Shown in pieces: positions 13,393-61,799 of a DNA stretch of 64,000 nucleotides. How positions within the stretch are numbered: position 1 is the stretch's first letter; each line of letters opens with the position of its first letter. The translations under genes and the position numbers were made by a program. Under the pieces are notes generated by a model, which saw only the letters and a list, made by a program, of their open reading frames with translations, was not told the DNA's origin and made no database searches. Source of the stretch: Candidatus Omnitrophota bacterium (GTDB taxonomy: Bacteria > Omnitrophota > Gorgyraeia > Gygaellales > Profunditerraquicolaceae); NCBI GenBank assembly GCA_022710715.1, contig JAKLGJ010000002.1, positions 147,791 to 211,790 on the forward strand, written 5' to 3'.

Positions 13393-13408
13393 TGTTTCAC
13401 GTGGAACA
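13393..13408. promoter_or_regulatory. parS centromere-like site
   Basis: TGTTTCACGTGGAACA is one mismatch from the consensus TGTTTCACGTGAAACA. Directly upstream of parAB. Confidence 0.7.
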
Positions 13409-13467
13409 ATCAAATTTGTCTATTGACAAACGGCGAAAATTTGAGAAAATAGTACCAGGTAGCCAAA

Positions 13468-13483
13468 TGTTTCACGTGGAACC
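13468..13483. promoter_or_regulatory. parS-like site (second copy)
   Basis: TGTTTCACGTGGAACC is two mismatches from consensus, 10 nt before the parA start. Confidence 0.55.
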
Positions 13484-13492
13484 ATATTTTAT

Positions 13493-17912: not shown

Positions 17913-17977
17913 CCAAGCGGTAAGGCAGCTGTCTGCAAAACAGCTATTCAGCGGTTCGATTCCGCTCGTCGCCTCCA
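17903..17977 (+). tRNA. tRNA-Cys (anticodon GCA)
   Basis: Acceptor GGCGACG/CGTCGCC, discriminator T and encoded CCA. Anticodon stem-loop GCTGT-CTGCAAA-ACAGC, T-arm AGCGGTTCGATTCCGCT. Confidence 0.8.
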
Positions 17978-18656: not shown

Positions 18657-18740
18657 GCCGGGGTGGCGGAACTGGCAGACGCACGAGACTTAAAATCTCG
18701 CGACCGTAAGGTTGTAAGGGTTCAACTCCCTTTCCCGGCA
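18657..18740 (+). tRNA. tRNA-Leu (anticodon TAA)
   Basis: Acceptor GCCGGGG/TCCCGGC (one G-T pair). Anticodon stem-loop CGAGA-CTTAAAA-TCTCG, long variable arm, T-arm GGGTTCAACTCCC. Confidence 0.8.
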
Positions 18741-41820: not shown

Positions 41821-43137
41821 ATGGTTCGAGTCCGTTTTGCTCCCAGTCCCACGGGGTTTTTGCATATAGGCGGGGCGCGCACCGCGTTGTTCAACTGGTT
41901 CTACGCCCAGGCCCAGGGCGGTAAATTCATCCTGCGTATCGAAGATACCGACGCCGCGCGTTCCAGACCGGAATATGTCGACGAGATACTCTTGAGCCTG
42001 AAATGGCTGGGATTCAACTGGGACGAGATCTACTATCAAAGCCAGCGTTTCGACATCTACCGCCGGTACGCCCAACAGCTGGTCAGCGAAGGAAAGGCCT
42101 ACGTGGCCGAAAAACTTCCCGACCAGCCGGCAGGCGGCCAGGCGATTATACTCAAGATGCTGCCGCAGCAGGTCAAGCTCAACGATCTGATCCGCGGACA
42201 GATCGAGTTCGACACCGCGGTGATCAAAGATCAGGTGCTCATCAAATCAGACGGCACGCCGACCTATAATTTCGCCTGCGTCATCGATGACGCCCTGATG
42301 CAGATCACGCATGTCATCCGCGGCGACGACCATATCTCGAACACTCCCAAACAGATCGTGCTCTATCAGGCCCTGGGGTTCGCGGTGCCGGAATTCGCGC
42401 ATCTGCCTTTGATCCTGGCCAAGGCCGGGGGGCGGCTTTCCAAGCGCAAAGGCGCTACGGCCATCTCGGAATACCGTCAGATGGGGTACCTTTCCGAAGC
42501 CCTGGTGAATTTTCTCCTGCTGCTGGGGTGGTCCCCCGGAGCGGATCGCGAGATCATCGGGCTCAAAGAAGCGATCGGCCTTTTCGACATCCGCAAGGTG
42601 AACAAAACCGCGGCAGTGCTTGATCTGGATAAGCTGGACTGGATCAACAGCCAGTATCTGCGCGCCATGTCGCCGCAGGACTTACTGACAGTGCTCGTGC
42701 CGCTGCTGGCGGAGAAGGGGTATATCGAAAAAGAAAAATTTGATAGCAATTATGTGCTTTCTTTGATACAATTATTTCAATCGCGCATGTCCACGCTGCA
42801 CGATTTCGTGGAGCGGTCGGATTTCTTTTTTGTCGATCAACCGGCGATGGATCCCGCCGCGCAGGAGAAATTTTTGTCCGGTGACCACTCCCGGGAATTC
42901 TCCCTGTTTATCCGGCGGCTGGAGGGTCTGGCGGATTTCAGTCCGGCAACCATTGAGGCCGGTTTTCGCGAGATGGCCCAGGAACTGGGCATGGAAGCCA
43001 AGCAACTGGTGCATCCGGTACGGGTAGCCCTGACCGGGAAAACCGTGGGCCCGGGACTGTTTGAGTTGGTCTACTACTTGGGTAAAGAGCGGACTAAACA
43101 GCGCTTGATCAGATGGGTAAAAAGGGAGGTTGCATGA
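41821..43137 (+). CDS. gltX: glutamate--tRNA ligase
   Basis: HIGH motif (PSPTGFLHIGGARTA) and KMSKS-equivalent LSKRKG. 438 aa. Confidence 0.9.
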   Translation: MVRVRFAPSPTGFLHIGGARTALFNWFYAQAQGGKFILRIEDTDAARSRPEYVDEILLSLKWLGFNWDEIYYQSQRFDIYRRYAQQLVSEGKAYVAEKLPDQPAGGQAIILKMLPQQVKLNDLIRGQIEFDTAVIKDQVLIKSDGTPTYNFACVIDDALMQITHVIRGDDHISNTPKQIVLYQALGFAVPEFAHLPLILAKAGGRLSKRKGATAISEYRQMGYLSEALVNFLLLLGWSPGADREIIGLKEAIGLFDIRKVNKTAAVLDLDKLDWINSQYLRAMSPQDLLTVLVPLLAEKGYIEKEKFDSNYVLSLIQLFQSRMSTLHDFVERSDFFFVDQPAMDPAAQEKFLSGDHSREFSLFIRRLEGLADFSPATIEAGFREMAQELGMEAKQLVHPVRVALTGKTVGPGLFELVYYLGKERTKQRLIRWVKREVA

Positions 43138-43298
43138 CACGAAAGGCCCTTCTGCTTTTATTGCTTTGGTGTAGTTCGATTCTGTGTTGCGGCTGCAATA
43201 CGGTTGGCGGCGCGGCTAAAGGCGCGGCTGATGGAGCGAAAAAGGACTACGAGGAAGCAAAAAAGGCGGATGCATGGTTGCAGGAAAATCTCTGGTAA
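43134..43298 (+). CDS. entericidin-like small lipoprotein
   Basis: 54 aa MTRKALLLLLLWCSSILCCGCNTVGGAAKGAADGAKK. Lipobox-like Cys followed by CNT and a Gly/Ala/Lys-rich tail, as in EcnA/B. Confidence 0.5.
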   Translation: MTRKALLLLLLWCSSILCCGCNTVGGAAKGAADGAKKDYEEAKKADAWLQENLW

Positions 43299-43383
43299 CC
43301 CATCTGCGTGCGCATGCACGCGGTCGAATGTATAAAAATACCACGCAATGGCGTACTGTATAGTATATAGGAAAGAGCCCTGA

Positions 43384-43414
43384 TGATTCAGGGCTCTTGT
43401 CTTTAAAGAAAACG
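43384..43414 (+). terminator. rho-independent terminator
   Basis: AGAGCCCTGA-TGAT-TCAGGGCTCT hairpin followed by TGTCTTT. Confidence 0.6.
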
Positions 43415-43448: not shown

Positions 43449-43883
43449 ATGAAAAAAGTGTATACTTATTTCGAGGTCTCTATGCCCAGGGGAATGACAG
43501 TCCTAGAGCTTGTAGTGGTGGTCATGATTATCGGCATTATTGCCGCATTGGCAATTCCCAATCTTTCTATCTCATTGGAGCGCAGCAGGATAAAAGAGGC
43601 GGAATTCAACCTTATGGCGATCTACAATGCCGAGAAGCGGTTTTATTTATACAACGGCAGCGAAACCTATTATTATGCTTCCGGAGCCAATGCCTTGCAG
43701 GGGATAAACGAGAATCTATCCCTGAACCTGGAAGCCAAGTATTTCCGGTATGCGGTCGCGAATAACGGCGCGGGCGGTTTTATCGCTATGGCTACGCGCC
43801 TGGACGGTATGTGCAGAAACGAAAATATGACGGTTACTGCTGACAACAGCAACATAACCAAGGGGTGCACGGGGAAATGGTGA
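43449..43883 (+). CDS. type IV pilin / GspG-like pseudopilin (prepilin N-methylation motif)
   Basis: Class III signal MPRG|MTVLELVVVVMIIGIIAALAIP with Glu at +5. Start could be 43485. Confidence 0.75.
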   Translation: MKKVYTYFEVSMPRGMTVLELVVVVMIIGIIAALAIPNLSISLERSRIKEAEFNLMAIYNAEKRFYLYNGSETYYYASGANALQGINENLSLNLEAKYFRYAVANNGAGGFIAMATRLDGMCRNENMTVTADNSNITKGCTGKW

Positions 43884-45304
43884 ACAAAATCGGAACGAAA
43901 ACAATGCTGATTGCCGCGGCAGCGGCGCTGTTGGTTACGGTTATCGCAGGCATAGTGATAGCCAAAACCAAGAGCATCAAATACCTGCCCCAGGATTATT
44001 CCATGGAGATGCTCAAGCAGGACTATAAAAACAACCCTATCGAGCTGTCGGGCGTAGATTGCGCGACTGCGCCGGAGGCGCAGGCGTATTTTAACTGCCA
44101 GGCGTGTACCACGTTGCGGCAGTTGCTCTGCAAAGACTGTTGTTTTTTAGGCACTCCGGCTAACGGTCAGCTGCGCTGTGTTGATGGGGATCCTGCTTAT
44201 TGCGACACCAAGCCGGGACTGCCTTTTGATACCGACAACAACTCCTGTCCTGCGGCCCAGTGCACAGAGACATCCTGCCAGAATCAACAACCGCCGGAAA
44301 CGGATTGTCTTGCCGGCGTGCAGCTTAACCAGTATCAGTACCTGGGGTGTCCGAAGACCACTGAACCTGCCCCGAAAGCGGGATCGGATTGTATAGGTAA
44401 TGAGGATACGTCCTGGTATTGCAGTAGCGGCGCTCTGGACGCCCGTCCGGCGTGTACTCCCCGCGCTAATTTTTTTCTACCCTCGGGCGCGCCGCTTCAG
44501 GATTGCGGCATGCTTCCACCGTACGATCTGATTGACGGGCAGCCGGAAGAGCTGTATAAACATAAAGACACGCCTATGGGGCCATGGCATTTTCCCGAAG
44601 ACTCCCGGTGTGATAATAACTGGGCAAAGTGTTTCGAGTATGCGGTAAACCCGGATTATGCGGCTTGCGTGAAGACCTGTAAGGATACAGCCAAAGCGCG
44701 GGAGGATTGCGCAGCCCAACAGAAATGTTGCACGGAAGCTGTTTGTCCCGACGAAACGCCATCGGGCATCGTGAATTGTCCTCACCGCAGCAGCCCGTTA
44801 GATCCCATGCAGGCCTGCGATAAGCGCATTGCCAAGCAGTGCGATACCACCTACGCCACTGCGCCCTGCAATACGATCATCAAAAGATATAACGAGTGGC
44901 TTTTGAGCGGCGAGGCCCCTGATTGCTTCCAGCCTGTTGACCCGTCGCAGAAATTCAAGTACCGGTTTGTCGCGCGCAGCAACGAAAAGATCACCATTAC
45001 CTGGCAGGTATTGTGCAATGCCGTTAAGAAAGGCAATCCCGACGAGTCCGACCGCATGTTTTATACCATGGTCAGAGTCCGGGATGAAGACGGGGGCCAG
45101 CCGGCGCATAACAGCATTATTCATCAGCGGTCCTTCCAGAACAAGTTTTTTATCAGCGCCGCGACCACGATTCCCGCCGGTTACTTGCAGGCGGGGAAGG
45201 CATACACCGCAGAAATCTATTATTATATCCCTTTACTGCAGAATGAAGAGCTGCAAATGAACGTCGAATATTTACAGCTGATTTTACATCGCAGTCGCGA
45301 ATAA
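43865..45304 (+). CDS. cysteine-rich secreted / membrane-anchored protein, unknown function
   Basis: 479 aa; N-terminal TM/signal anchor, about 36 Cys in the first 380 residues, Cys-free beta-rich C-terminal about 100 aa. No family recognised; overlaps the upstream pilin gene. Confidence 0.6.
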   Translation: MHGEMVNKIGTKTMLIAAAAALLVTVIAGIVIAKTKSIKYLPQDYSMEMLKQDYKNNPIELSGVDCATAPEAQAYFNCQACTTLRQLLCKDCCFLGTPANGQLRCVDGDPAYCDTKPGLPFDTDNNSCPAAQCTETSCQNQQPPETDCLAGVQLNQYQYLGCPKTTEPAPKAGSDCIGNEDTSWYCSSGALDARPACTPRANFFLPSGAPLQDCGMLPPYDLIDGQPEELYKHKDTPMGPWHFPEDSRCDNNWAKCFEYAVNPDYAACVKTCKDTAKAREDCAAQQKCCTEAVCPDETPSGIVNCPHRSSPLDPMQACDKRIAKQCDTTYATAPCNTIIKRYNEWLLSGEAPDCFQPVDPSQKFKYRFVARSNEKITITWQVLCNAVKKGNPDESDRMFYTMVRVRDEDGGQPAHNSIIHQRSFQNKFFISAATTIPAGYLQAGKAYTAEIYYYIPLLQNEELQMNVEYLQLILHRSRE

Positions 45305-45311
45305 ACAGGAG

Positions 45312-46130
45312 GTGGGTATGAAGCGCATTATAACCGGAATCTGCGTATGGCTTTTGCTCTGTGCGGTAGCGGCGCTGGCCGAGGAAGCGGAAATGCCGGC
45401 AGCGTTGCCTCCTACGGTAACCGAGATCAAAGGCGCGCAGACCGCGGAATTAAGCCCGGCACGATATCCGGTTTTTAAAAGTTTCCCTTCGGGGGATGCT
45501 CCGACGTGCCAGGCATACTTGAGCACTCTTTTCGACGAAGAGGAAGCCACGACCTCTGGAGAGGCGCAGAGCGGGTTGAGCCTGGCGCCCATTCAATTGA
45601 CCAGCAAATTCGGCAGCCCCGGCGTTCCCGCCGGCGATGAAGCGCGCTGGGAGCCGGTTCAGGGATTGAAGCTGGCGACTTTTACCGTGCCGAGCGAATA
45701 CCGGAAAACCGCCAAGATACTGATTACCTGGACTGTCCGGGTAAACGGCATTCCCACGGCGCTGAATATCAGGCCTAATCTCTGCTCAAACTGGGCGGGG
45801 ACCTCGGTGCAGGGTTTTCCCGAAGGCCAGTTGATCACCAAGCTCTATATCAATAAGATTCCCACAAGCAAAGAAGTGGAAATAACCGTTCCGGCGTCAT
45901 CGGACCTGGTCATAAGCCAGCCTCGTCCGCCGGCGCCCACCGGCTGCGATCCCACTCTGACCGGTTCATATCTGATCTCTCCGGACCAGTTTTCCGACAA
46001 GCAATTGCCGGCGAAGCTGACCAACATCGAGATCTGGTGGAAGAATGATACTTCGATGAAGCTGGTTTCGGAGGGCGACTGGAGAAATATGATCATTACT
46101 TTTATGCCGCTGGGCAAAGATCAAAATTAA
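45312..46130 (+). CDS. secreted protein of unknown function, paralog A
   Basis: Signal peptide. Shares TVTEIKGA, EYRKTAKILITWTVRV, DPTLTGSYLISP, IEIWW and ITFMPLG blocks with the next gene. Confidence 0.65.
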   Translation: MGMKRIITGICVWLLLCAVAALAEEAEMPAALPPTVTEIKGAQTAELSPARYPVFKSFPSGDAPTCQAYLSTLFDEEEATTSGEAQSGLSLAPIQLTSKFGSPGVPAGDEARWEPVQGLKLATFTVPSEYRKTAKILITWTVRVNGIPTALNIRPNLCSNWAGTSVQGFPEGQLITKLYINKIPTSKEVEITVPASSDLVISQPRPPAPTGCDPTLTGSYLISPDQFSDKQLPAKLTNIEIWWKNDTSMKLVSEGDWRNMIITFMPLGKDQN

Positions 46131-46161
46131 GCATTGAGGGATAAGAAAAAGGAGGGGAGAG

Positions 46162-47004
46162 ATGAGAACCGTTATAATCGTAGTAGGCATCTGTTTATTG
46201 ATCACCGGTTTGGCCTGGGCCGGCGAGAAAGCCACCATGCCCGTCGCCAGAGCTCCGGAGGTTACGGAGATCAAAGGCGCTGACGCCGCGCAGCTGGCGC
46301 CGGCGATTTTTCCGCAATTTATCGCCAAACACGAAACGGATAATCCCACCTGCGAAGATTGGCTGGCAGGTCTTAGCGGCACGCGGATGAGAAACCTGCA
46401 GAGCCCTTATGCCCGGGATGCAGGAGCTTGGTGGGGAGGTGTCGAGGTCAAGGCGGATCCTGCCCATCCTAACCAGGGCACCCAGATAATCACTGCGAAT
46501 GCCGGCAAGTGGCAGCTTCTTCCCGGATTGAGCAAGGCTAATTTCAGGATCCCGGAGGAATACCGCAAAACCGCGAAGTTACTGATCACCTGGACCGTGC
46601 GCGTAGAAGGCCGGGCCTATCCTGTCTGCGACTATAATTTGACCCAAAACTGTTTCCATGCCTGGCCGGACCTGTGTCATCCCTGGCATGGCAAAGCGTA
46701 TCTGTCCTTCTCGAAAGGCAATGTCTCGACCAAGGTTTATGTCAATGGCTCACCGGTGAGCGAGTCGTTCACCCTGGAAGTGCCCGGTCCCGGACAGGTC
46801 AGCGGCAATCAGCCCTATGACCCGACATTGACCGGCAGCTTTTTGATCTCTCCTGCAGAATTAGGGCTGGAGGAATTTCCGGCGGTGATCCGTTCTATCG
46901 AAATCTGGTGGCAGAACGAAACGGCAATGCATGTTACCAGTCCGGCGCACATGCGCACCATGTCGATCACCTTTATGCCGCTGGGCGAATCGCTGGCAGA
47001 TTAA
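46162..47004 (+). CDS. secreted protein of unknown function, paralog B
   Basis: Signal peptide; same conserved blocks (EVTEIKGA, EYRKTAKLLITWTVRV, DPTLTGSFLISP, IEIWW, ITFMPLG). Confidence 0.65.
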   Translation: MRTVIIVVGICLLITGLAWAGEKATMPVARAPEVTEIKGADAAQLAPAIFPQFIAKHETDNPTCEDWLAGLSGTRMRNLQSPYARDAGAWWGGVEVKADPAHPNQGTQIITANAGKWQLLPGLSKANFRIPEEYRKTAKLLITWTVRVEGRAYPVCDYNLTQNCFHAWPDLCHPWHGKAYLSFSKGNVSTKVYVNGSPVSESFTLEVPGPGQVSGNQPYDPTLTGSFLISPAELGLEEFPAVIRSIEIWWQNETAMHVTSPAHMRTMSITFMPLGESLAD

Positions 47005-47013
47005 ACGGAGACC

Positions 47014-47898
47014 GTGCATACGGTGTTTATGAAAAAGCAAGGCGTGACGTTCATCGAAATCCTGGTTTCCCTGGTCATCCTGAGCCTGATCCTGTCGGCA
47101 GTAGCTGCCGCGCTTTTTGGCGGGTTCAGGATGCTCAAGCAGGCGGAATTCAAGTCAAGGGCCATGGGTATTGCCTATTTCAAGATGAGCCAGGCCTTGA
47201 GCAAAACCTATTCCGGCAGCCTGAATAACACCACTGTGCCGCAACTGTGGACCGGGTTCAATGATACCGAGGCGGAATTCTTCTGGAGCATTACGGCCAC
47301 TCCCGAGGAATCGGATAAAGCCCACATTCCGTACAAGAACATTACCGTTGTTTGCAGCTATGCCATAAAGAATCCCGATGGCACGCTGGATAAACCCAGA
47401 GAAGTCCGTTTGAGCAATATCATTCCGTATCCGTATATCCACAGCCGGTCGAAGAAGGTCGATTGGAACGAAACCACCGGTAATTATCCGCTGGCTCTGA
47501 ACGCTTCGCAATCGGATAGGCCTGATCCCGCCGACTTTAAGGATATTCTTTCGCCGGAAGTCATTAGTTTTAACTTCGAAGTGAACAAGGACCTGGTGGT
47601 GCTCTATAATCTGGCTATCGAGCATGAGCCGGATTTTGCCGATCAGGAACCGCCGCCGGGCAATCAGACCGTGTATACCGAGTGCCTGATGGACAATAAC
47701 GCAATCTGGGGCATTACCACCCGCACCCCGATCATCAGCCAGCCGTTCATTAATAACGCCCTGGTCATCCAGAACGTATCCGCGGAGCCGCATACGCTGC
47801 AAATCCGCTGGTGCAAGGATCCCTCGAAGGGCAAAGTGAAACTGCGGTCATACGAGATTACCGTTCTAGCCTATGAAAATATTACCTGGATCCAATAG
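47014..47898 (+). CDS. large minor pseudopilin (GspK/PilX-like size) with prepilin signal
   Basis: MHTVFMKKQG|VTFIEILVSLVILSL class III signal with Glu+5. 294 aa with several N-x-S/T sequons. Confidence 0.7.
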   Translation: MHTVFMKKQGVTFIEILVSLVILSLILSAVAAALFGGFRMLKQAEFKSRAMGIAYFKMSQALSKTYSGSLNNTTVPQLWTGFNDTEAEFFWSITATPEESDKAHIPYKNITVVCSYAIKNPDGTLDKPREVRLSNIIPYPYIHSRSKKVDWNETTGNYPLALNASQSDRPDPADFKDILSPEVISFNFEVNKDLVVLYNLAIEHEPDFADQEPPPGNQTVYTECLMDNNAIWGITTRTPIISQPFINNALVIQNVSAEPHTLQIRWCKDPSKGKVKLRSYEITVLAYENITWIQ

Positions 47899-48448
47899 CG
47901 GCTTTACGCTGCTCGAGCTGATTATCTCGGCGGTGATCGCGGTTATCGTCTTTATGGGAGTTTTGAACACCAGCACGTTTACCTGCAGGCAGATCACGTT
48001 GTATGTGGAGCGGTATAATATGTATTCCCAGATCGACCTGGCCCTGCAGGATATGCAGGCGCGTCTGCCCGCTGCAGTCGAGATCGCCGCCAACAGCATT
48101 CTCGATTCCAGCGATCCTGACGATAGCAAAACACGCTTCACCTTTCAAGGCGAGTCCGATATTTTCAGGATTACCCCGGATAACCTGGCGGACAATGCCC
48201 GGTATACATACGAGATCGATCCTGCCAACAATCTGGTGTTGCGCAAGGAAGTAAACGGCAATGTAGTGACTACCGTTCTGGTCGAAGGAAAATTCCTGCC
48301 CGAAGTGCATTTCGGGTGGGATGAAGAGCCGAATTTTTTAAAGATCACGCTTACTGCCCGCAGTCCGCGAAAACAGTTGTCCGGATTGACTCAACAAATC
48401 GCCAAAGTCGAAGGAGTCAGGCTTTGGTTCATTAACGCGGTCGAATGA
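47873..48448 (+). CDS. minor pseudopilin (GspJ-like size) with prepilin signal
   Basis: MKILPGSNSG|FTLLELIISAVIAV. 191 aa; overlaps the previous gene by 26 nt. Confidence 0.7.
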   Translation: MKILPGSNSGFTLLELIISAVIAVIVFMGVLNTSTFTCRQITLYVERYNMYSQIDLALQDMQARLPAAVEIAANSILDSSDPDDSKTRFTFQGESDIFRITPDNLADNARYTYEIDPANNLVLRKEVNGNVVTTVLVEGKFLPEVHFGWDEEPNFLKITLTARSPRKQLSGLTQQIAKVEGVRLWFINAVE

Positions 48449-48756
48449 TAGCTACCGTCATCGGCGTACTGATTACCATACTGTCCTTAATGGTTGCCTT
48501 TTTTCTCTCCATAGGCAACGTCCATCATTTGGTGGAAGCCGATTTTCTCAACAAAGCCCAGTCTAACGCCGTCCTTAATACTCTGCAGGTGGGGCAGTTG
48601 CGGTACCGGGATAAGACCCTGAACGATACGCAGACCACGCATAATGGCTCGATAGGGCATCTGCGCAGCGTGGCTAATAAAGACTACAGCAATGTGACTT
48701 ATCAGATCAGGCTGGAAGACGCCAGCAATATTACGGTCAATGTCACGATTAAATAA
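48445..48756 (+). CDS. small membrane protein (pilin-like hydrophobic N-terminus, no G-F-T-L-I-E motif)
   Basis: 103 aa MIATVIGVLITILSLMVAFFLSIG... ATGA overlap with the preceding gene. Confidence 0.4.
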   Translation: MIATVIGVLITILSLMVAFFLSIGNVHHLVEADFLNKAQSNAVLNTLQVGQLRYRDKTLNDTQTTHNGSIGHLRSVANKDYSNVTYQIRLEDASNITVNVTIK

Positions 48757-49198
48757 CCGGAGGGTTGTCGATATGTTCAGATCCGCTCGGAATCATCTGC
48801 GGGGATTTACCTTGATCGAGTTGGTCATCGTGGTGATTATTATCGGTATTCTGGCCACCGTGGCCACGGTGAATTATATCGGGACAATTGAAAAAGGCCG
48901 GGCCAGCGAAGCCAAGACCACGCTGGCGCAGATCCGCACTGCCTGGAGCAACTACTATCTTGAACACCAGGCCGCCCCCGGAAGCTTTGCCGACCTCGAG
49001 TTGAATGAGACGGCTTTTCCCGGGCCCGCCAATTGCAATGAAGGGCATTTTTTCCGCTACGGTATTACCGGCACCACGGCCTTCGCCTGGCGCTGTACCT
49101 CCAACGGTAAGAAGCCCAACGTGGACAACCTCCGCCGCTATAATATCACCATGGATCTGGAAAACGGCTCCTGGGGAGGGACTCCCGGGCATTTTTGA
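48740..49198 (+). CDS. type IV pilin / GspG-like major pseudopilin
   Basis: LRG|FTLIELVIVVIIIGILATVA, a near-consensus prepilin motif, followed by a pilin-like ASEAKTTLAQIRTA helix. Likely start MFRSARNHLRG at 48773. Confidence 0.75.
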   Translation: MSRLNNRRVVDMFRSARNHLRGFTLIELVIVVIIIGILATVATVNYIGTIEKGRASEAKTTLAQIRTAWSNYYLEHQAAPGSFADLELNETAFPGPANCNEGHFFRYGITGTTAFAWRCTSNGKKPNVDNLRRYNITMDLENGSWGGTPGHF

Positions 49199-49224: not shown

Positions 49225-49253
49225 TTTACACCCACCTTAAAATCGGGTATAAT
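49225..49253 (+). promoter_or_regulatory. sigma70-type promoter upstream of tRNA-Gln
   Basis: TTTACA, 17-nt spacer, TATAAT, about 30 nt before the tRNA. Confidence 0.5.
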
Positions 49254-51922: not shown

Positions 51923-52858
51923 TCAAGGCTCTTTGCGTTTGTCTACGACGTAATTGCTCCCGGGCAGGCTTTTGGCATAGGATTTCAATTCAGCGCCGAT
52001 TTCCCCGATTTGCGCGACGTGGTCGATTTTGATGTGCTGGTTGGTCACCACTCCGATACCGACTGAAAGCAGGGGGAACTTACGCTCCTGGCCCTGGCGG
52101 TCATGCGCAACGATATAGCCATTCGCCCGGTCGGTTTCGTTATAGAAGGTGGGAGAGACCGCATCGAAGGTGGCGATGATCGTGGTGCAGAGCACATCCA
52201 TTTTGGCGATAGTGGTGATCACCACGTAATCGTCGCCGCCGATATGTCCGACGAAATCCTCGGGATTGCCATGTTCCTGAACGGTTTTAAGCAATATGCG
52301 CGCAGTCTCCTTGATTACCCGGTCTCCGTGTTGGAACCCGTACGTGTCGTTATACGCCTTGAATTTGTTCAAATCGACATAACAAACGGCAAAAGCGTCT
52401 TTACTGCCCAGCCGGCGGTTTAATTCATCCAGGATGGAGACATTGCCGGGCAGGCGGGTCAGGGGATTGGCTTCGAGATCGATGCCGGAGCGGCGCAGGA
52501 TCATCCGGATATGCGCGATCAGCTCCTTTGGTTCAAACGGTTTGACGATATAATCATCCGCTCCCGCTTCGATGCCGTCCACCTTATCTGTCAACTCGCC
52601 CTTGCCGGTAACCATGATAATCGGCAGGTGGCGCAGGAGAATATCTTTTTTGATCCTGCGGCAGAATTCACGGCCGTCCATGCGGGGCATCTTGTAGTCC
52701 ACCAGGACCAGGTCGGGAACCTTCGTCTCGATGGCCTTCAGGGCTTCTTCTCCGTTACCCGCCTCGGTAACTTCGTACTTTTCGTCTTCCAGGGTAATTC
52801 TGATCACGTCGCGGATATCCGGATCGTCGTCGACAACGAGAATCTTAATGCTTGGCAT
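51923..52858 (-). CDS. response regulator: REC domain + GGDEF-family domain with non-canonical GGDDY site
   Basis: REC with phospho-acceptor context LVLVDYKMPRMDG. GGDEF fold (RLPGNVSILDELNRRL, DLNKFKAYNDTYGFQHGD) but signature reads HIGGDDYVV. Confidence 0.8.
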   Translation of the reverse strand: MPSIKILVVDDDPDIRDVIRITLEDEKYEVTEAGNGEEALKAIETKVPDLVLVDYKMPRMDGREFCRRIKKDILLRHLPIIMVTGKGELTDKVDGIEAGADDYIVKPFEPKELIAHIRMILRRSGIDLEANPLTRLPGNVSILDELNRRLGSKDAFAVCYVDLNKFKAYNDTYGFQHGDRVIKETARILLKTVQEHGNPEDFVGHIGGDDYVVITTIAKMDVLCTTIIATFDAVSPTFYNETDRANGYIVAHDRQGQERKFPLLSVGIGVVTNQHIKIDHVAQIGEIGAELKSYAKSLPGSNYVVDKRKEP

Positions 52859-52873
52859 ACAATCCCAGCTCCT

Positions 52874-54361
52874 TTATTGAGCGACCGGGAGGGTGAAGCT
52901 GAAGGTAGAACCGGCCCCGGCCGAGCTCTTTACCCAGATGGTTCCTTTGTGCGCTTCGATGATATGCTTGACCATGGCCAATCCCAGCCCCGTGCCCTTG
53001 ACTTCCTGATTGATGGTGGAATCCACGCGGTAAAATTCCACGAAGAGATTGTTAACCGCGTCTTCGGGAATGCCGCAGCCGGTATCGGCGATATCTATCT
53101 GCACCCGGCTGTTTTTCTGCGCCGCTCTTACCGTAATGGTCCCGCCCGGCGTATACTTGACGGCATTATTAATCAGGTTGATGCACACCCGTTTGATCTG
53201 TCCGTAATCGGCCAGTACCTCGGGTAGCGCAGCGTCAACATCCAGCCGGAATGCAATCTGTTTTTCCTTCATCTGCACCGCCAGCAGGTCGGCGACTTCC
53301 TCGACGACATTCCGCACATTCAGCGGGACGAGTTTTAAAGTGATCCGGCCCGATTCGATGCGGGCGATGTCCAGCAGGTCATTGACGAATGAAACGAGCT
53401 CGTCGCTGTGCTTGTTGATCTTTTCCAGGCGTTTATGCACCTCTTCGGGAATAGCGCCAAGTTTGCCCGAGAGCAGGATAGAGGCGTATCCTTTGATCGA
53501 AGTAAGGGGGGTGCGCAGCTCATGAGAAACATTGGAAACGAAATCGTTTTTGCGCTGGCTGATGCGCTTGACTTCTTCCAGCGCTACGCTTAATTCTCTC
53601 GTACGTTCTTCCACCCGCTTTTCCAGCTCTTGATGCGCCTGCCAGGTTTTTTCGAAAAGACGGGCGTTCTCCAGCGCCTGACCGATCTGATTCGCCAGGA
53701 TGTTCATTAATTCTTCATCCCCTTCGTTAATGATCAGATCGGGGTCGGTTGAACCGACAAAAAGGAACCCCTTATTGCCTTCTTTCGGCAGGATGGGAGA
53801 GATAACGAAAGAAATGACTTTGAAGGTTTTCTTTATCTGTTCTCTCAATTGCCGGTCGACCTGCGGCGATACCGACGACATGCCTTTTTCATTATTGATC
53901 ATCTGGTGGAACGCGTCGCTCTGCGCCTGGACGAATTGCCGGATAGCTTCGAGCTCCTCTTCCGCGTAGTTGAGCTCCAGATAAAAGATATAATTGCCGG
54001 TAAACTCATTGCGTAAAAATGCCGCGGCTTTCTCGAACCCGAGATTTTCCACCAGCTCCTGCTCGATCTTGCCGAAAATCTGCGTTTCGTCCAGCGTCGA
54101 ACTGATCGAGCGGGTCAGCTTTTGCAGGGTGTAAAGACCGTTGACCTTCTTATCCAGTTCTTCCTGCGTTTTGTTCAGTTCGATATCGGTGCGCACGACC
54201 AGCTTGGCCTGTTCATCCATCTCGTCCAGGGTGTATTTGAGATTGTTGACCGAGGTCTCAAGCTGGCTGACCTGTCCGATCTTCAGAACCAGCACGATTG
54301 CCAGGGCGATGCATCCGGCAAAGCTCGCCAGGCCCAGTATCATCATCAGGAAGTCAAACAT
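52874..54361 (-). CDS. sensor histidine kinase (TM anchor - coiled coil - GAF - HisKA - HATPase_c)
   Basis: H-box SHELRTPLTSIKGYASIL; N, G1 (DTGCGIP) and G2 (GTGLGLAMVK) boxes. Confidence 0.85.
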   Translation of the reverse strand: MFDFLMMILGLASFAGCIALAIVLVLKIGQVSQLETSVNNLKYTLDEMDEQAKLVVRTDIELNKTQEELDKKVNGLYTLQKLTRSISSTLDETQIFGKIEQELVENLGFEKAAAFLRNEFTGNYIFYLELNYAEEELEAIRQFVQAQSDAFHQMINNEKGMSSVSPQVDRQLREQIKKTFKVISFVISPILPKEGNKGFLFVGSTDPDLIINEGDEELMNILANQIGQALENARLFEKTWQAHQELEKRVEERTRELSVALEEVKRISQRKNDFVSNVSHELRTPLTSIKGYASILLSGKLGAIPEEVHKRLEKINKHSDELVSFVNDLLDIARIESGRITLKLVPLNVRNVVEEVADLLAVQMKEKQIAFRLDVDAALPEVLADYGQIKRVCINLINNAVKYTPGGTITVRAAQKNSRVQIDIADTGCGIPEDAVNNLFVEFYRVDSTINQEVKGTGLGLAMVKHIIEAHKGTIWVKSSAGAGSTFSFTLPVAQ

Positions 54362-54363
54362 AA

Positions 54364-55617
54364 TTATGCCTCAATAATAAGTATGGAAATAGTCTGGTTC
54401 TGGAAATACGCCTGTCCGTGGTAGCTGGTGGATAAGAGCGGGGCCAGCTCCCCATGGGTATACACGCCGATTATCGGGGTCTCCGGGTCAAGGGTTTCCC
54501 GGATAAGCTCGAGTTCTTTCTTTATCTCGCGGCGTAACGAAACCGCGCGGGGGAATGAATTGAAAATAATCGCCATCTTCGACGAATCGTTCTTGTGAAA
54601 ACGGTAGGATTGCGATGCCAGATGCGTTTTGGCTTCATTGAGCGCTTCCCGTGTTGCCTCCAGACAGGTTTCTTTGGTGCTGATCATCAAACGCACGGAA
54701 CTGCCGGTTTGCACGTTCCCCCGGCAGACCAGGGAACCGTCGTCGCCTATAGAGGTCACGTTGCGCAGGAGATATTCCTGTTGCCCGGGCACGCGCATCC
54801 CGAAAGGATAGAGAATGGACAACTTTTTGAATTCTTTCTTGAGCCGGGAGATGTCATAGTTGAGATATTCTTCATAGATACCGATCGCCGGCTGGTCGTC
54901 GATGGAAACGATGATGTTGTCGTATGCCTGGGTGATCGTATGGGGTTTCCCCAATGGTTTCCAGCCGTGTTTCAACCCCAGTCCGAAATTGAATTTTCCT
55001 CCCCAGAGGATTCCTATGCAGGCGTTATTGAGGATCGTGGTGTTAAAGAAAAGCGAATCGCGGCCGGCCAGCGCCGGATTGGAAATCGACGCCCCGATGC
55101 AGGGAAAGCTTCGGCCCAGTTTAGACTGCAGACCGGTCATGAATTGCGCTCCGGATTCTTCCATGCGGTCAAAGAGCAGGAAGCTTAAGGTCCGGGAGAC
55201 ATTCTGGAAGCCGTACAGAAGCTTTTCTCCCAGATCTTCTCCGGCAGCAGTGCTGGTGGCAAATTCGTTGGTTTTAGTGTAGGCGGTGTTGAAATAAACC
55301 CCCTCGGGGAAGCCGATGAGCATGACGACAAGCCCGTGATTGAAAATGCCTTTTTCCGTGATGAGCGCCGAAGAATTTGAGCCGAAAATGGGGACGTCGC
55401 CGAGGAAGGTGTTGAGATGCTTGATCAGTGCGACTGACGAGAAATCCGCGGTACTGAACGTGAGCACCAGATCGATCTTTTCTTTGCTGGCTTTTCTTGA
55501 TTTTGCCTGCCGGACCGCCTCTTCTGAAGCAGCGATCTCGTTCTTCTCAAGACTTACGCCAACGCCTATGTCGATCATTATTTTGTCAGTTCGATAGCGG
55601 TCGTTTAATCGCACCAT
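54364..55617 (-). CDS. FIST-domain sensory protein (FIST_N + FIST_C)
   Basis: 417 aa; IDIGVGVS N-terminus and overall FIST architecture. Heads the 3-gene operon with the HK and RR. Confidence 0.65.
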   Translation of the reverse strand: MVRLNDRYRTDKIMIDIGVGVSLEKNEIAASEEAVRQAKSRKASKEKIDLVLTFSTADFSSVALIKHLNTFLGDVPIFGSNSSALITEKGIFNHGLVVMLIGFPEGVYFNTAYTKTNEFATSTAAGEDLGEKLLYGFQNVSRTLSFLLFDRMEESGAQFMTGLQSKLGRSFPCIGASISNPALAGRDSLFFNTTILNNACIGILWGGKFNFGLGLKHGWKPLGKPHTITQAYDNIIVSIDDQPAIGIYEEYLNYDISRLKKEFKKLSILYPFGMRVPGQQEYLLRNVTSIGDDGSLVCRGNVQTGSSVRLMISTKETCLEATREALNEAKTHLASQSYRFHKNDSSKMAIIFNSFPRAVSLRREIKKELELIRETLDPETPIIGVYTHGELAPLLSTSYHGQAYFQNQTISILIIEA

Positions 55618-56465: not shown

Positions 56466-57281
56466 AAAGAGTTACAATAATATTATTCCCTCATTAAAAA
56501 TTAATAAAATTTATCGTTAGATTTGTCGACTTCGCGCGTCTATTATAGCGGAGAAGACAAATGCCTTCATGCGCTAGAAAACATCGATTAACAGGATCGC
56601 TTATTTACCATATCTTCAATCGCGGCAATAGCCGCAAGGTCATCTTTTGTGATGAGTCGGATTGCATTTTCTTCAAATGTCTCCTTAAAAAATACATTGA
56701 ACTGTTCTCTATACAGATTTATCACTGGGTAATCATGCCCAATCATTATCATTTATTGCTGGAGATTGCCGAGCCGCGGTTAATTTCGCGGGTCATGGCC
56801 GGCCTTAATGTTTCATACACCAGGCATTTTCACCGGAAATATGAGACATATGGTCTATTGTGGCAAGGAAGATTTAAATCGCAGCCGGTGCAGAAAGAGT
56901 CTTATCTTTTTGCCTGCGGCAGATATATCGAGCGAAACCCGGTGAGGAAGAACATAGTATCGGTCGCCGCGGAGTATGCACATAGCAGCGCGCGGTTTTA
57001 TTGCCTGGGGGAGAATGATGACATCACCTGCGAGGATCCGTATTTTCGGGAGTTCGGCCGGAGCTTAAACGATGCGCAGGCGCATTATGCGCGTTATTTA
57101 CTTGGGTTCGATCGGACTGAAGAAAGCCAATTCCGCAAAATTGATATTCCCTTAGGGGATAGAATCTTTGTGAATAAGTTGCGGAAGGAGAGGGGGCTTT
57201 ATGTCCCTGCCGGTCCAGGAAAACCGCGAGCGAATATCATTGCAACTAATTGCTAGACTAATATTTGGGGAAAGCGTCTGC
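56466..57281 (+). mobile_element. putative small insertion carrying the RAYT/IS200-like transposase (boundaries not defined)
   Basis: AT-rich DNA and a transposase gene next to a tRNA gene. No terminal inverted repeats or REP hairpins identified. Confidence 0.3.
56561..57256 (+). CDS. IS200/IS605-family HUH (Y1) transposase, RAYT-like
   Basis: HUH motif NHYHLLLE and catalytic Tyr context RYIERNPVR. The gene and the 95-nt stretch before it look AT-rich against the GC-rich surroundings. Confidence 0.75.
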   Translation: MPSCARKHRLTGSLIYHIFNRGNSRKVIFCDESDCIFFKCLLKKYIELFSIQIYHWVIMPNHYHLLLEIAEPRLISRVMAGLNVSYTRHFHRKYETYGLLWQGRFKSQPVQKESYLFACGRYIERNPVRKNIVSVAAEYAHSSARFYCLGENDDITCEDPYFREFGRSLNDAQAHYARYLLGFDRTEESQFRKIDIPLGDRIFVNKLRKERGLYVPAGPGKPRANIIATNC

Positions 57282-58550
57282 CTAGAAGGAGAGTTCTTCG
57301 GTGCTCACGATTTTGACCTGGCCGTTATCCTGAATATCGCCTGAAACTTCAATGATCACCAGATCATTTTCCTGGGCTCCGGAGAGTATCTGGGCATAAT
57401 CGCTGGTAAAGTATCCCACGGAAACCGAGCGTGTCTGCACTACTCCGATCTGTCCCTCATCGGGATTGCCCTGAATGGAAGCAGCGGGAATAACCAGCAA
57501 CTGGAAAGCTTCGTTAACATTGATCAGGGCGCTGGAAGGCACCATGAGGGCATTGTCCAGTTCAACAATGCTTAAGTCCGCCCGGCTGAACATCCCCGGC
57601 AGCAACAGTCCTTCGTCATTCTTCACCTTGAGCTTAACCGTAAGGGTCCGGCTTTTTCCTTCCACAATCGGGAAGATATATTCCACGAATCCCTGAAAAG
57701 GTATGGTCGGGTAGGCGTCGACATAAATCTTGGCTTTCTGCCCGATCTTGACTTTCTCGATATCGCGCTCGACCACGCCGACTTCCACGAAGACGTTCTT
57801 GATCTCGAACAGGGAGCCAACCTTATCCTGGGAAGTGACGAATTCGCCTTCTTCCGCATCGCGCGGCCCCATCACGCCGTCTTTGGTGGCGTATATCTTG
57901 GTTTTCTTCATTTCGTTTTCCGCGATCTGCAGTTCGCTGCGCGCGGTTTCCAGCTGGTAGCGAGCGCTTTCTACTTCCAATTCGATTTGTTCCATCTTGG
58001 ATTTGATAATCGCGCCGGCTTCATAGAGTTTTTTATGGATTTCCAGTTGTTTAAGCACGGAATTGTACCCTGCCTGCGCGGAATGGAATTTGCTCTGGGC
58101 GTATACATATTTCAGCTCGGCGTCGCGGGAGTTGAGGATGGCAATAAGGTCGCCCTTTTTGATCTTCTCGCCTTCGCGGAAAAAGATCTTTTCGATCACG
58201 CCGTTGATTTCAAAGCGCAATTCGACTTCGGTTTCGCCTTTGACCGTGCCCATGACCGGAAGCACGTCGATAAATTTAGGCGCGACTTTCAAACGCAGGG
58301 TGCGGGCTTGCGGCAGAATGGTTTCCGCGGGCGCCAGCGGTTGGCCGTCTTTGCCTTGCGTTTCAGGCGATTCCGGCGCCTGCTCTCCGGAAGTCTTTTG
58401 CTGGACGGTTTCTTTTATTTTCTCTATGGTTTCGGGAATGGAGGCGTCCGGGCCGACTTTCAAATAGGTCTTGAGCATTCCCCAGCCGATGAAGACGATC
58501 CAGAATAAGACCACCAGGCCCAGCAGCAGCTTGGCAATTTTTGCGCCCAT
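57282..58550 (-). CDS. RND efflux membrane fusion protein (periplasmic adaptor subunit)
   Basis: N-terminal TM, coiled-coil hairpin, lipoyl/beta-barrel/MP domains. 422 aa. Confidence 0.8.
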   Translation of the reverse strand: MGAKIAKLLLGLVVLFWIVFIGWGMLKTYLKVGPDASIPETIEKIKETVQQKTSGEQAPESPETQGKDGQPLAPAETILPQARTLRLKVAPKFIDVLPVMGTVKGETEVELRFEINGVIEKIFFREGEKIKKGDLIAILNSRDAELKYVYAQSKFHSAQAGYNSVLKQLEIHKKLYEAGAIIKSKMEQIELEVESARYQLETARSELQIAENEMKKTKIYATKDGVMGPRDAEEGEFVTSQDKVGSLFEIKNVFVEVGVVERDIEKVKIGQKAKIYVDAYPTIPFQGFVEYIFPIVEGKSRTLTVKLKVKNDEGLLLPGMFSRADLSIVELDNALMVPSSALINVNEAFQLLVIPAASIQGNPDEGQIGVVQTRSVSVGYFTSDYAQILSGAQENDLVIIEVSGDIQDNGQVKIVSTEELSF

Positions 58551-61796: not shown

Positions 61797-61799
61797 GTT

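What the first reader, a model, noticed from the sequence alone, without database searches (positions are those of the whole stretch)
43449..49198. Orphan prepilin gene cluster with a cysteine-rich protein and a duplicated secreted protein: candidate novel pilus-tip / surface-filament module
Within 5.7 kb, four ORFs carry unmistakable class III (prepilin peptidase) signal sequences. These are MPRG|MTVLEL, KKQG|VTFIEIL, SNSG|FTLLEL and HLRG|FTLIEL, each with Glu at +5. Two have major-pilin/GspG-like size and helices (43449.., 48773..). Two have minor-pseudopilin sizes of 294 and 191 aa. A further 103-aa protein has a pilin-like TM but no cleavage motif. Co-oriented between them, with overlapping or near-abutting ends, sit a 479-aa protein with about 36 cysteines and two paralogous signal-peptide proteins. 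There is no assembly ATPase, platform protein, prepilin peptidase or secretin in the cluster. The pilin set therefore appears to be an accessory cargo or tip module that depends on machinery encoded elsewhere. In known type IV pilus and T2SS systems, minor pilins prime the filament and present a large non-pilin adhesin such as PilY1/PilC. Here the non-pilin partners are three unrelated-looking secreted proteins with no family I recognise. The arrangement pilin, Cys-rich protein, two paralogs, three minor pilins, pilin is compact and apparently co-transcribed. It starts after a terminator at 43384-43414 and ends before the tRNA-Gln promoter.
Basis: partly seen in the sequence, partly recalled or inferred. 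Interest (0 to 1): 0.8.

Follow-up and report, generated by a model that had tools for sequence, protein, structure and literature searches.

The report
Accessory pilus-tip gene cassette in Omnitrophota
This is a real, conserved operon from an uncultured Omnitrophota bacterium that most likely builds an alternative tip for a type IV pilus-like filament, combining a spare set of minor pilins with new secreted proteins predicted to have a TNF/C1q-like fold, which are candidate adhesins for attaching to surfaces or host cells.

Summary
Eight co-oriented, tightly packed genes lie at 43449-49198. Four carry prepilin cleavage/methylation motifs above NCBIfam's curated cut-off. One is a 103-aa leaderless pilin-like protein. 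Three are Sec-type secreted proteins with no Pfam, NCBIfam or PDB sequence match.

The genome is a Candidatus Omnitrophota MAG. The order A-B-C-D-E-F (pilin, Cys-rich protein, secreted protein, pilin, pilin, small protein) is invariant in 13 distinct loci at 25-40% identity. In four lineages it sits directly upstream of a PilM/GspM/secretin/ATPase/platform operon.

That machine is far commoner than the cassette. It normally carries its own major pilins plus H-, I- and J-position minor pilins. Profile comparison shows A, D and E are paralogues of those H, I and J pilins, so B, C and F are the novel parts.

Best reading: an accessory priming/tip module, comparable to alternative minor-pilin/PilY1 sets. 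It is a new variant of a known kind. No machinery lies in the 64-kb window. The rest of the genome could not be searched.

The parts
43373..43398 (+). Hairpin (10-bp stem AAGAGCCCTG / CAGGGCTCTT, 6-nt loop) after the small lipoprotein-like ORF. It is a likely terminator that separates the gltX unit from the cassette.
   Evidence: Read from the sequence. The T tail is weak, and the consensus scan did not call it.
43449..43883 (+). Gene A (O1): prepilin, MPRG|MTVLEL with Glu5, 144 aa (or 133 aa from 43482). It is a paralogue of the H-position minor pilin of the canonical operon.
   Evidence: TIGR02532 23.8 bits. hhalign of family A against the canonical H-position pilins gives 99.9%, E 5e-36, 134 columns. 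Present in all 13 loci.
43877..45304 (+). Gene B (O2): secreted Cys-rich protein of 475 aa. The longest ORF runs from 43865; the ENA gene call starts at 43904. It has 31 Cys, 11 of them invariant in the family. A conserved IKYLP motif follows the signal peptide. The C-terminal domain of about 120 aa is a beta-sandwich. The extreme C-terminus is conserved (hydrophobic strand + R-x-R-E).
45312..46130 (+). Gene C1 (O3): Sec-secreted protein, 270-272 aa, paralogue of O4. It is the orthologue of the C gene in the second cassette copy of relative L011.
   Evidence: 38% identity to O4. BLAST and neighbour-joining tree. No family hit.
46162..47004 (+). Gene C2 (O4): Sec-secreted protein, 280 aa, predicted to have a C1q/TNF-like jelly-roll core (residues ~118-272).
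47014..47898 (+). Gene D (O5): prepilin KKQG|VTFIEIL, 294 aa. It is an I-position (GspI/PilV-class) minor pilin with a family-specific C-terminal extension of about 160 aa.
   Evidence: TIGR02532 20.7 bits. Weak N-terminal hits to PilV and XpsI. hhalign of D residues 15-137 against the canonical I-position pilin: 97.4%, E 1.5e-11. The PDB profile search matches only the alpha1 helix.
47873..48448 (+). Gene E (O6): prepilin SNSG|FTLLEL, 191 aa, a J-position (GspJ/PilW/ComGF-class) minor pilin.
   Evidence: TIGR02532 18.1 bits. ComGF hit over residues 9-97. hhalign of E residues 5-168 against the canonical J-position pilin: 98.1%, E 8e-14.
48445..48756 (+). Gene F (O7): 103-aa leaderless pilin-like protein. 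It has an invariant M-I start, a hydrophobic and then amphipathic helix of about 55 residues, a short beta-rich tail, and no Gly-1 or Glu5. It occupies the K position. Its start overlaps the end of gene E by 4 nt (ATGA).
   Evidence: Alignment A5. N-termini in 14 loci. No hit in Pfam, NCBIfam or PDB, and none to the H/I/J profiles.
48740..49198 (+). O8: prepilin HLRG|FTLIEL, 141-152 aa, a major-pilin/GspG-like pilin. It is related to the pilins that follow the platform gene in machine operons. It is present after the cassette only in this genome and in L011.
   Evidence: TIGR02532 29.7 bits, N_methyl 32.7 bits. BLAST to L009_g14 and L011_g7. Pilin2 HMM.
49170..49189 (+). Terminator-like hairpin whose T run overlaps the O8 stop codon. 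It marks the 3' end of the operon, ahead of the tRNA-Gln promoter at 49225-49253.

Best explanation
The cluster is an accessory minor-pilin/tip (priming) cassette of the type IV filament machine found in Omnitrophota. That machine consists of a PilM-like protein, a GspM-like protein, a small 120-aa protein, a secretin, a PilB/GspE-class ATPase with an MshEN c-di-GMP motif, and a GspF/PilC platform.

Shown here:
- Gene A is a paralogue of the machine operon's H-position pilin. D is an I-position pilin with an added C-terminal domain. E is a J-position pilin.
- F sits where a K-class pilin would sit. Like K-class pilins it lacks Glu5, but it is tiny and has no leader peptide.
- B and C (duplicated here as O3 and O4) are Sec-exported proteins. 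Their conserved domains are predicted to be TNF/C1q-like jelly rolls.

Inferred:
- After processing by a prepilin peptidase encoded elsewhere, D, E and F form the initiation complex at the inner membrane. A links it to the major pilin (O8 or the machine's own pilins).
- B and C dock on this complex in the periplasm, in the role PilY1/PilC plays in type IVa pili. They are then carried to the filament tip.
- Their TNF/C1q-like heads, a fold typical of trimeric fibre tips and lectins, and the Cys-rich region of B bind a surface or host ligand.
- The cassette would give the shared machine an alternative, specialised tip, as the multiple minor-pilin/PilY1 sets of Myxococcus and the two priming sets of Synechocystis do.
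For: 1. Four prepilin motifs above the curated cut-off.
2. The A-B-C-D-E-F content and order are invariant in 13 distinct loci at 25-40% identity.
3. The genes are tightly packed. A/B overlap by 7 nt in the loci with gene calls starting at the equivalent codon, and E/F overlap by 4 nt here and in several loci. This fits co-translation of stoichiometric partners.
4. The cassette lies directly upstream of the PilM-GspM-secretin-ATPase-platform operon in L009/L010/L024, L014/L022, L015 and L016. The machine components were identified.
5. hhalign: A = H-position (E 5e-36), D = I-position (E 1.5e-11), E = J-position (E 8e-14).
6. In L011 the block B-C-D-E-F is duplicated as a unit. B and C therefore travel with their own D-E-F set, as PilY1 does with its minor pilins (PMC7541494).
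7. Canonical machine operons end after the J-position pilin. No K-like or PilY1-like gene was recognised downstream; most of these downstream ORFs were inspected only by N-terminal sequence.
9. The extreme C-terminus of B is conserved to the last residue. This recalls the C-terminal beta-strand that PilC/PilY1 donates to PilK (PMC12918778).
10. Type IVa pilus genes are reported in nearly all Omnitrophota genomes and are linked there to host attachment (PMC10066038).
Against: - No direct evidence shows that B or C contacts the pilins. No complex modelling could be run.
- The B model is poor overall (pLDDT 39.5, three-sequence alignment). Its fold assignment is therefore tentative, and jelly rolls are common folds.
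- The machine's best family hits are split between T2SS (GspD, GspF, GspM) and T4P (PilB, PilM). No retraction ATPase is seen in the operons. A secretion role is therefore equally compatible with the machinery.
- The machinery and prepilin peptidase of this particular genome were not found, because only 64 kb could be searched.
- F matches nothing, so calling it a K-equivalent rests only on position, size and the lack of Glu5.
- In the B and C models the last strand is part of the jelly roll. It may not be free to act as a donor strand.
Confidence: 0.6

Rival explanations
1. This is a pseudopilus set with co-encoded cargo. A, D, E and F are pseudopilins of a T2SS-like or secreting type IV pilus system. 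B, C1 and C2 are its exported substrates, released into the medium and not retained on the tip. They would be comparable to TcpF and CofJ, which are encoded in type IVb pilus operons, bind the tip minor pilin through an N-terminal segment and are secreted.
For: - The machine components score best or near-best against GspD, GspF and GspM. No PilT-like gene is in the operons.
- B and C have Sec signal peptides, each followed by a conserved N-terminal motif: IKYLP... in B and MPxxxAPxV... in C. These could be recognition segments like those of TcpF and CofJ (PMC6048534, PMC9565799, PMC10120004).
- TNF-like lectins and Chlamydia Pgp3 are soluble secreted proteins.
Against: - B and C are embedded between the H-like and I-like pilin genes, with an overlapping start for B, in every locus. 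They are duplicated together with D-E-F. That pattern is typical of structural partners rather than cargo.
- The ATPase carries an MshEN c-di-GMP motif typical of MSHA/PilB-type pilus ATPases.
- Tip binding followed by release is not exclusive of the tip model.
Confidence: 0.25
2. B and C are periplasmic or outer-membrane-associated accessory factors. Examples would be assembly chaperones, redox or metal-binding partners of the Cys-rich protein, or cell-envelope proteins. On this view they are merely co-regulated with an alternative minor-pilin set and never leave the cell.
For: - B has 31 Cys, including conserved CxxC and CC motifs. These could bind metals or act in redox chemistry.
- M. xanthus PilY1 needs a periplasmic cytochrome-like helper (PMC8833165).
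- No sequence or complex evidence places B or C on the filament.
Against: - There is no CxxCH or other cofactor motif, and no Pfam hit in eight family members.
- The TNF/C1q fold is overwhelmingly an extracellular ligand-binding head.
- The strict gene order inside the pilin set is unexplained by this reading.
Confidence: 0.1
3. The cluster is a decaying orphan remnant of a pilus operon that is no longer functional in this genome.
For: No machinery lies within the 64-kb window. The cassette is detached from the machine in this and several other genomes.
Against: - All eight ORFs are intact, with conserved motifs.
- The identical proteins are recovered from at least six independent assemblies or metagenomes.
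- The detached arrangement is itself conserved across divergent genomes (L007, L011, L013, L018-L021, L023).
- Extra copies have been retained: O3/O4 here and a second cassette copy in L011.
Confidence: 0.04

Closest known systems
Type IVa pilus core minor-pilin/PilY1 operons (P. aeruginosa fimU-pilVWXY1E; the multiple minor-pilin/PilY1 clusters of M. xanthus)
   Same: - A compact operon of an H-like linker pilin plus I- and J-class minor pilins.
- A large non-pilin, Sec-exported protein is encoded with them.
- The set can be detached from the machine genes.
- Alternative sets exist in one lineage and duplicate as units (PMC7541494).
   Different: - There is no PilY1/PilC beta-propeller. The non-pilin partners are a Cys-rich protein and one or two TNF/C1q-like jelly-roll proteins.
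- They are encoded between H and I, not after K.
- The K-position protein is 103 aa, has no leader and matches no known pilin.
- The I-class pilin carries an extra domain of about 160 aa.
T2SS pseudopilus tip GspH-I-J-K
   Same: - The H-I-J gene order.
- The tip-position subunit lacks Glu5.
- The associated machine has GspD-, GspF- and GspM-like components.
   Different: - No GspK-like large alpha-domain pilin is present.
- No member reaches the curated gspG/H/I/J cut-offs; only the N-terminal helices match.
- Three extra secreted proteins are embedded in the set.
Type IVb pilus tip systems (ETEC CofB/CofJ, V. cholerae TcpB/TcpF)
   Same: Operon-encoded secreted proteins that engage a beta-rich, trimeric, lectin-like tip (PMC6048534, PMC9565799). 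This is a precedent for threefold-symmetric adhesive tips on type IV pili.
   Different: In type IVb pili the trimer is a single large minor pilin. Here the TNF/C1q-like domains are on non-pilin proteins, and there are three distinct small pilin-like subunits. There is no sequence relationship.
C1q/TNF-like fibre-tip and lectin domains (Photorhabdus TNF-like lectin 9ib6, Chlamydia Pgp3, Bacillus BclA and the F-ENA tip fibrillum, phage tail-fibre tips, Bdellovibrio Bd2734)
   Different: - Sequence identity is only 8-15%, and no C1q or TNF Pfam hit was found.
- There is no collagen-like or coiled-coil stalk.
- The genomic context is a pilin operon.
- Trimerisation was not tested.
Alternative priming sets in cyanobacteria (Synechocystis; bioRxiv 10.64898/2026.02.12.705559) and the beta-strand complementation model (PMC12918778)
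   Same: The concept that one machine uses distinct minor-pilin sets to build specialised filaments. The concept that lineage-specific proteins or domains replace PilY1 as the 'tip plug'.
   Different: In cyanobacteria the plug is a beta-solenoid domain within PilX. Here the candidate plug is made of separate TNF/C1q-like proteins. Donor-strand pairing was not modelled.

Membership tests
Type IV pilin / pseudopilin superfamily (class III signal peptide) | N-terminal cleavage/methylation motif (G|F/M/V-x-x-x-E) followed by a hydrophobic alpha1 helix | tested here: met
   TIGR02532 is above its 16.3-bit cut-off for O1, O5, O6 and O8. N_methyl hits. PDB profile hits to pilin alpha1 helices. O7 (F) does not meet it: it has no leader, no Gly-1 and no Glu5.
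Type IV pilin / pseudopilin superfamily (class III signal peptide) | Processing by a prepilin peptidase (PilD/GspO) encoded in the genome | not testable with these tools
   No Peptidase_A24-type gene was found among the window ORFs scanned. The rest of the genome (contigs of 234 kb and 914 kb) could not be read.
Core minor-pilin (H-I-J-K) initiation set of type IV filaments | Syntenic H-, I- and J-class minor pilins | tested here: met
   hhalign against the H-, I- and J-position pilins of the lineage's canonical operons: A 99.9%, D 97.4%, E 98.1%, in the same order. The H/I/J classes of the canonical genes themselves were assigned by position and size and by weak PilV, XpsI and ComGF hits.
Core minor-pilin (H-I-J-K) initiation set of type IV filaments | A K-class (GspK/PilX) minor pilin lacking Glu5 | tested here: inconclusive
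   F is in the K position and lacks Glu5. However, it is 103 aa, has no leader, and shows no similarity to any profile or PDB chain.
PilY1/PilC tip adhesins | C-terminal beta-propeller domain (Pfam Neisseria_PilC / PilY1 family) | tested here: not met
   No Pfam or NCBIfam hit for B or C in 8 and 17 family members. The predicted folds are jelly rolls, not propellers.
PilY1/PilC tip adhesins | Extreme C-terminal beta-strand that complements the K-class pilin | not testable with these tools
   The B C-terminus is conserved to the last residue. No multimer modelling was available.
T2SS (Gsp) pseudopilins GspG/H/I/J/K | Scores above the curated equivalog cut-offs for gspG, gspH, gspI and the other Gsp pseudopilins | tested here: not met
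   The best scores are gspG 42.6 bits against a cut-off of 88.85 (O8) and gspH 31.9 against 80. All matches cover the N-terminal helix only.
C1q/TNF-like jelly-roll superfamily | Jelly-roll beta-sandwich of TNF/C1q topology | tested here: met
C1q/TNF-like jelly-roll superfamily | Trimeric assembly | not testable with these tools
   Only monomer prediction was available.
Verru_Chthon cassette (TIGR02596/TIGR02599) and Amuc_1098-1102 pilus-like cluster | Scores above the family cut-offs | tested here: not met
   Verru_Chthon cassette proteins C and D hit only at E 0.001-0.1, far below their cut-offs. Only the relatives' PilM-like and secretin proteins hit Amuc_1101 and Amuc_1098, and only weakly.

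The most novel reading that the evidence does not exclude
B, C and, where duplicated, C' assemble through their TNF/C1q-like domains into a (hetero)trimeric head. This head caps a three-subunit D-E-F initiation complex. It would be a PilY1-independent tip architecture in which a threefold adhesin matches the pseudo-threefold minor-pilin tip. The apical subunit F would be a leaderless pilin that needs no prepilin peptidase. The cassette would then be the host- or prey-recognition device of these ultra-small Omnitrophota, swappable on a common machine.
Probability: 0.2. Interest if true: 0.75.

Novelty: new variant of a known kind. Interest (0 to 1): 0.55.

Why it matters
Type IV filament tips decide what a pilus binds and whether it assembles at all. 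So far the known non-pilin tip proteins are PilY1/PilC-type propellers and MshQ, alongside pilin-like tip proteins such as CpaL and the large type IVb minor pilins.

This cassette would add a different solution: TNF/C1q-like jelly-roll proteins, a Cys-rich protein and a leaderless pilin-like subunit, grafted onto a paralogous H-I-J pilin set.

Omnitrophota are uncultured nanobacteria thought to attach to, or prey on, other cells through pili. This cassette therefore names concrete candidate attachment proteins that can be modelled, expressed and localised. It also gives three sharply bounded protein families (B, C and F) that currently have no annotation.

Tried and rejected
- Sequence searches for B and C found nothing: Pfam, NCBIfam, and PDB by phmmer and by profile.
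- The word-indexed homologue search for the Cys-rich protein failed twice, returning only P0017 and P0018. Cys-rich words saturate the candidate list. As a result its AF2 alignment had three sequences and the model is poor.
- The afdb50 fold library was unavailable.
- B and C share no detectable sequence similarity by BLAST or hhalign, despite the similar predicted fold. The extension of D shows none to B or C.
- I first read D-E-F as a reversed K-J-I order, judging by size. I rejected this after hhalign showed D = I-class and E = J-class.
- I considered the Verru_Chthon cassette, the Amuc_1100 cluster and ComP_DUS as homes for these proteins. All are below cut-off.
- I looked for the machinery in the window by tblastn and Pfam and found none.
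- I tried to find this organism's machine through a metagenome scan with the PilM-like profile. No hit came from the metagenomes that carry this strain's cassette (3300025715, 3300019247), so no link could be made.
- No CxxCH haem motif is present in B.

Full report
**1. Observation**

The region 43449-49198 holds eight co-oriented ORFs on the + strand, with short gaps or overlaps between them. I label them as follows.

| Label | Coordinates | Length | Description |
|---|---|---|---|
| A / O1 | 43449-43883 | 144 aa | prepilin |
| B / O2 | 43865-45304 | 479 aa (true start probably 43877, 475 aa) | Cys-rich secreted protein |
| C1 / O3 | 45312-46130 | 272 aa | secreted protein |
| C2 / O4 | 46162-47004 | 280 aa | secreted protein, paralogue of O3 |
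| D / O5 | 47014-47898 | 294 aa | prepilin |
| E / O6 | 47873-48448 | 191 aa | prepilin |
| F / O7 | 48445-48756 | 103 aa | leaderless pilin-like protein |
| O8 | 48740-49198 | 152 aa | prepilin |

- O1, O5, O6 and O8 all pass NCBIfam's curated cut-off for the prepilin cleavage/methylation domain TIGR02532 (23.8, 20.7, 18.1 and 29.7 bits against 16.3). Each has Glu at +5.
- All other pilin-family hits (GspG, GspH, PilA, PilV, ComG and others) are far below cut-off and cover only the N-terminal helix.
- O2, O3, O4 and O7 match nothing significant in Pfam or NCBIfam (O7 has only sub-threshold Pfam hits), and nothing in the PDB by sequence.
- O3 and O4 are 38% identical. O2 has 31 cysteines, not about 36.
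- The flanks are gltX plus a small lipoprotein-like ORF upstream, and tRNA-Gln, a DUF4337 gene and glnS downstream.
- A hairpin at 43373-43398 precedes the cluster. A hairpin with a T run overlaps the O8 stop, and a near-consensus promoter precedes tRNA-Gln.

**2. Source and conservation**

O4 is encoded, residue for residue, on contigs from ENA, NCBI, JGI and Logan. These include GCA_035453765.1 (234-kb contig) and a 914-kb ENA contig. NCBI names the organism Candidatus Omnitrophota bacterium.

The word-indexed search found only 16 clusters of O4 relatives. Looking up their contigs, together with one scan of GTDB species genomes, gave 13 distinct loci.

HMMs built for each gene family show the same six genes in the same order, A-B-C-D-E-F, in every one of these loci, at 25-40% identity.

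- C is duplicated in tandem in the window, in L020 and in L021.
- In L011, which shares the window's gltX context, the whole B-C-D-E-F block is present twice.
- O4 is closest to the C gene of L011's first block, and O3 to that of the second.
- A and B overlap by 7 nt in the loci with gene calls starting at the equivalent codon. This argues that O2 starts at 43877.

A profile of the C family, searched exhaustively against 1.84 billion representative proteins, finds 152 proteins. Of these, 144 score below 1e-10, and nearly all are 70-370 aa long (one 848-aa outlier; the shortest ones are probably fragments). The family is therefore small and sharply bounded.

**3. Link to a machine**

In L009/L010, L014/L022, L015 and L016 the cassette is followed by a six-gene machine operon and then pilins. 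It follows directly, or after one radical-SAM gene. The operon encodes:
- a PilM-like protein of about 500 aa;
- a GspM-like protein;
- a protein of about 120 aa;
- a secretin;
- a PilB/GspE-class ATPase with an MshEN c-di-GMP-binding motif;
- a GspF/PilC platform protein.

Family scores for these components are split between T2SS and T4P models. None of them, and no prepilin peptidase, is present in the 64-kb window. The window is otherwise housekeeping and lies near the replication origin: dnaA, dnaN, gyrBA, yidC, parAB, aminoacyl-tRNA synthetase genes and others.

**4. The machine has its own pilins, and the cassette is a paralogous extra set**

A metagenome scan with the PilM-like profile found 244 loci, of which 80 were kept. 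The operon PilM-GspM-P121-secretin-ATPase-platform is highly conserved among them. It is normally followed by:
- one to three major-type pilins;
- an H-position pilin of about 130-145 aa;
- an I-position pilin of about 115-137 aa;
- a J-position pilin of about 190-230 aa;
- then ORFs with no recognisable K-like or PilY1-like gene (most inspected only by N-terminal sequence).

Among roughly 27 loci with at least 6 kb of upstream sequence, none has the cassette. Only L024, a close relative of L009, does.

Profile-profile comparison gives:

| Cassette gene | Canonical counterpart | hhalign result |
|---|---|---|
| A | H-position pilin | 99.9%, E 5e-36, full length |
| D, residues 15-137 | I-position pilin | 97.4%, E 1.5e-11 |
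| E, residues 5-168 | J-position pilin | 98.1%, E 8e-14 |
| F | none | no match |

The cassette is therefore H-[B-C]-I-J-F. The I-class pilin carries a family-specific extension of about 160 aa. F sits in the position where K-class pilins normally sit.

F always begins M-I followed by a hydrophobic helix. It has no leader, no Gly-1 and no Glu5. In the window the in-frame stop just upstream rules out a longer N-terminus.

**5. Folds of the non-pilin proteins**

- the F-ENA tip fibrillum;
- cyanophage tail-fibre tips;
- C1q heads;

Foldseek against viral models finds C1q-domain, collagen-like and tail-fibre proteins.

B and C show no sequence similarity to each other.

Other features of B:
- 11 invariant cysteines, including CxxC and CC motifs;
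- a conserved IKYLP motif right after the signal peptide;
- an extreme C-terminus conserved to the last residue (hydrophobic strand + R-x-R-E/Q).

**6. Mechanism**

*Shown:* a conserved operon that unites a paralogous H-I-J minor-pilin set with three lineage-specific proteins. It is repeatedly fused to a type IV filament machine. B and C travel and duplicate together with D-E-F.

*From the literature:*
- Minor pilins plus PilY1 form a priming complex that ends up at the pilus tip (PMC7541494).
- Lineages can hold several alternative sets for one machine (PMC7541494; bioRxiv 10.64898/2026.02.12.705559).
- PilC/PilY1, MshQ and CpaL lock into the tip by donating or completing a C-terminal beta-strand of the K-class subunit (PMC12918778).
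- Type IVb tips are trimeric and bind operon-encoded secreted proteins (PMC6048534, PMC9565799).
- Type IVa pili are near-universal in Omnitrophota and are linked there to host attachment (PMC10066038).

*Inferred:* D, E and F form an alternative initiation complex, and A links it to the major pilin. B and C, with C' in this genome, are the non-pilin tip subunits that replace PilY1. Their TNF/C1q-like heads would act as ligand-binding and possibly trimeric modules.

I put this reading at about 0.6. The main rival, at about 0.25, is that B and C are pilus- or T2SS-dependent secreted proteins in the manner of TcpF and CofJ. The two readings are not mutually exclusive.

**7. Comparison and novelty**

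The cassette works like a minor-pilin/PilY1 set. It fails the membership tests for PilY1/PilC (no propeller) and for the Gsp pseudopilins (below cut-off). It has an unprecedented K-position protein.

I found no paper combining type IV pili, minor pilins and TNF-like domains. I rate it a new variant of a known kind.

**8. Limits**

- No multimer modelling was possible.
- The B fold is tentative.
- The H/I/J classes of the canonical pilins are assigned by position, size and weak hits.
- The remainder of this genome could not be searched, so the prepilin peptidase and machinery for this particular cassette remain inferred.

Noticed in passing
window 3161-11002 and 11666-15174: The window spans the chromosomal origin region. 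On the - strand lie gyrA, gyrB, dnaN and dnaA. On the + strand lie yidC, parA and parB. The cumulative GC-skew minimum is at about 8-10 kb, and an AT-rich stretch (GC 0.41) lies at 12-14 kb. In relatives L007 and L013 the cassette also lies next to glmS-gyrA-gyrB.
   Followed up: partly
window 17993-18649: A LAGLIDADG-type homing-endonuclease-like ORF (218 aa, PF14528, E 2e-13) sits free-standing between tRNA-Cys (17903-17977) and tRNA-Leu (18657-18740).
   Followed up: no
L007 17557-20703: GyrB of a relative is called as a 1264-aa protein containing an intein (Intein_splicing between the GyrB domains). The window's GyrB is 817 aa without one.
   Followed up: no
window 58611-63785 (- strand): An RND (AcrB-type) transporter appears as two adjacent ORFs. 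One is 1061 aa and matches ACR_tran positions 3-749. The other is 661 aa and matches positions 713-1020. A HlyD-type adaptor lies next to them at 57282-58550. The pair could be a split gene, a frameshift or two partial paralogues.
   Followed up: no
window 56561-57256: An IS200-like Y1 transposase gene lies downstream of a methyltransferase gene.
   Followed up: no
L028-L103 (for example L073 17189-19582, L076 17148-20285): The widespread Omnitrophota-type PilM-GspM-secretin-ATPase-platform operon carries major pilins plus H-, I- and J-position pilins. No recognisable K-class minor pilin or PilY1-like gene follows; the next genes are unrelated. How these filaments are capped is unclear.
   Followed up: partly
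L009 16940-18658; window 51923-55617: The machine's ATPase has an MshEN-type c-di-GMP-binding motif (63 bits against a cut-off of 38). The window encodes a response-regulator-GGDEF protein, a histidine kinase and a FIST protein about 3 kb downstream of the cassette. The proximity may be coincidental.
   Followed up: no
window 43113-43298: A small lipoprotein-like ORF (61 aa; called as 54 aa) overlaps the end of gltX. It is conserved in the same position in relative L011 (50 aa). It has no family assignment.
   Followed up: no
L014 12516-13379; L016 ~12700-14200: In two lineages a radical-SAM gene is inserted between the cassette and the machine operon. AmmeMemoRadiSam-like ORFs also often follow the canonical pilin set.
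   Followed up: no
L017, L022 record titles: Two MAGs that carry the cassette are labelled 'uncultured Planctomycetales/Planctomycetia bacterium'. Their loci are identical to Omnitrophota-type loci (L007, L014). This is probably automated mis-assignment of taxonomy.
   Followed up: no
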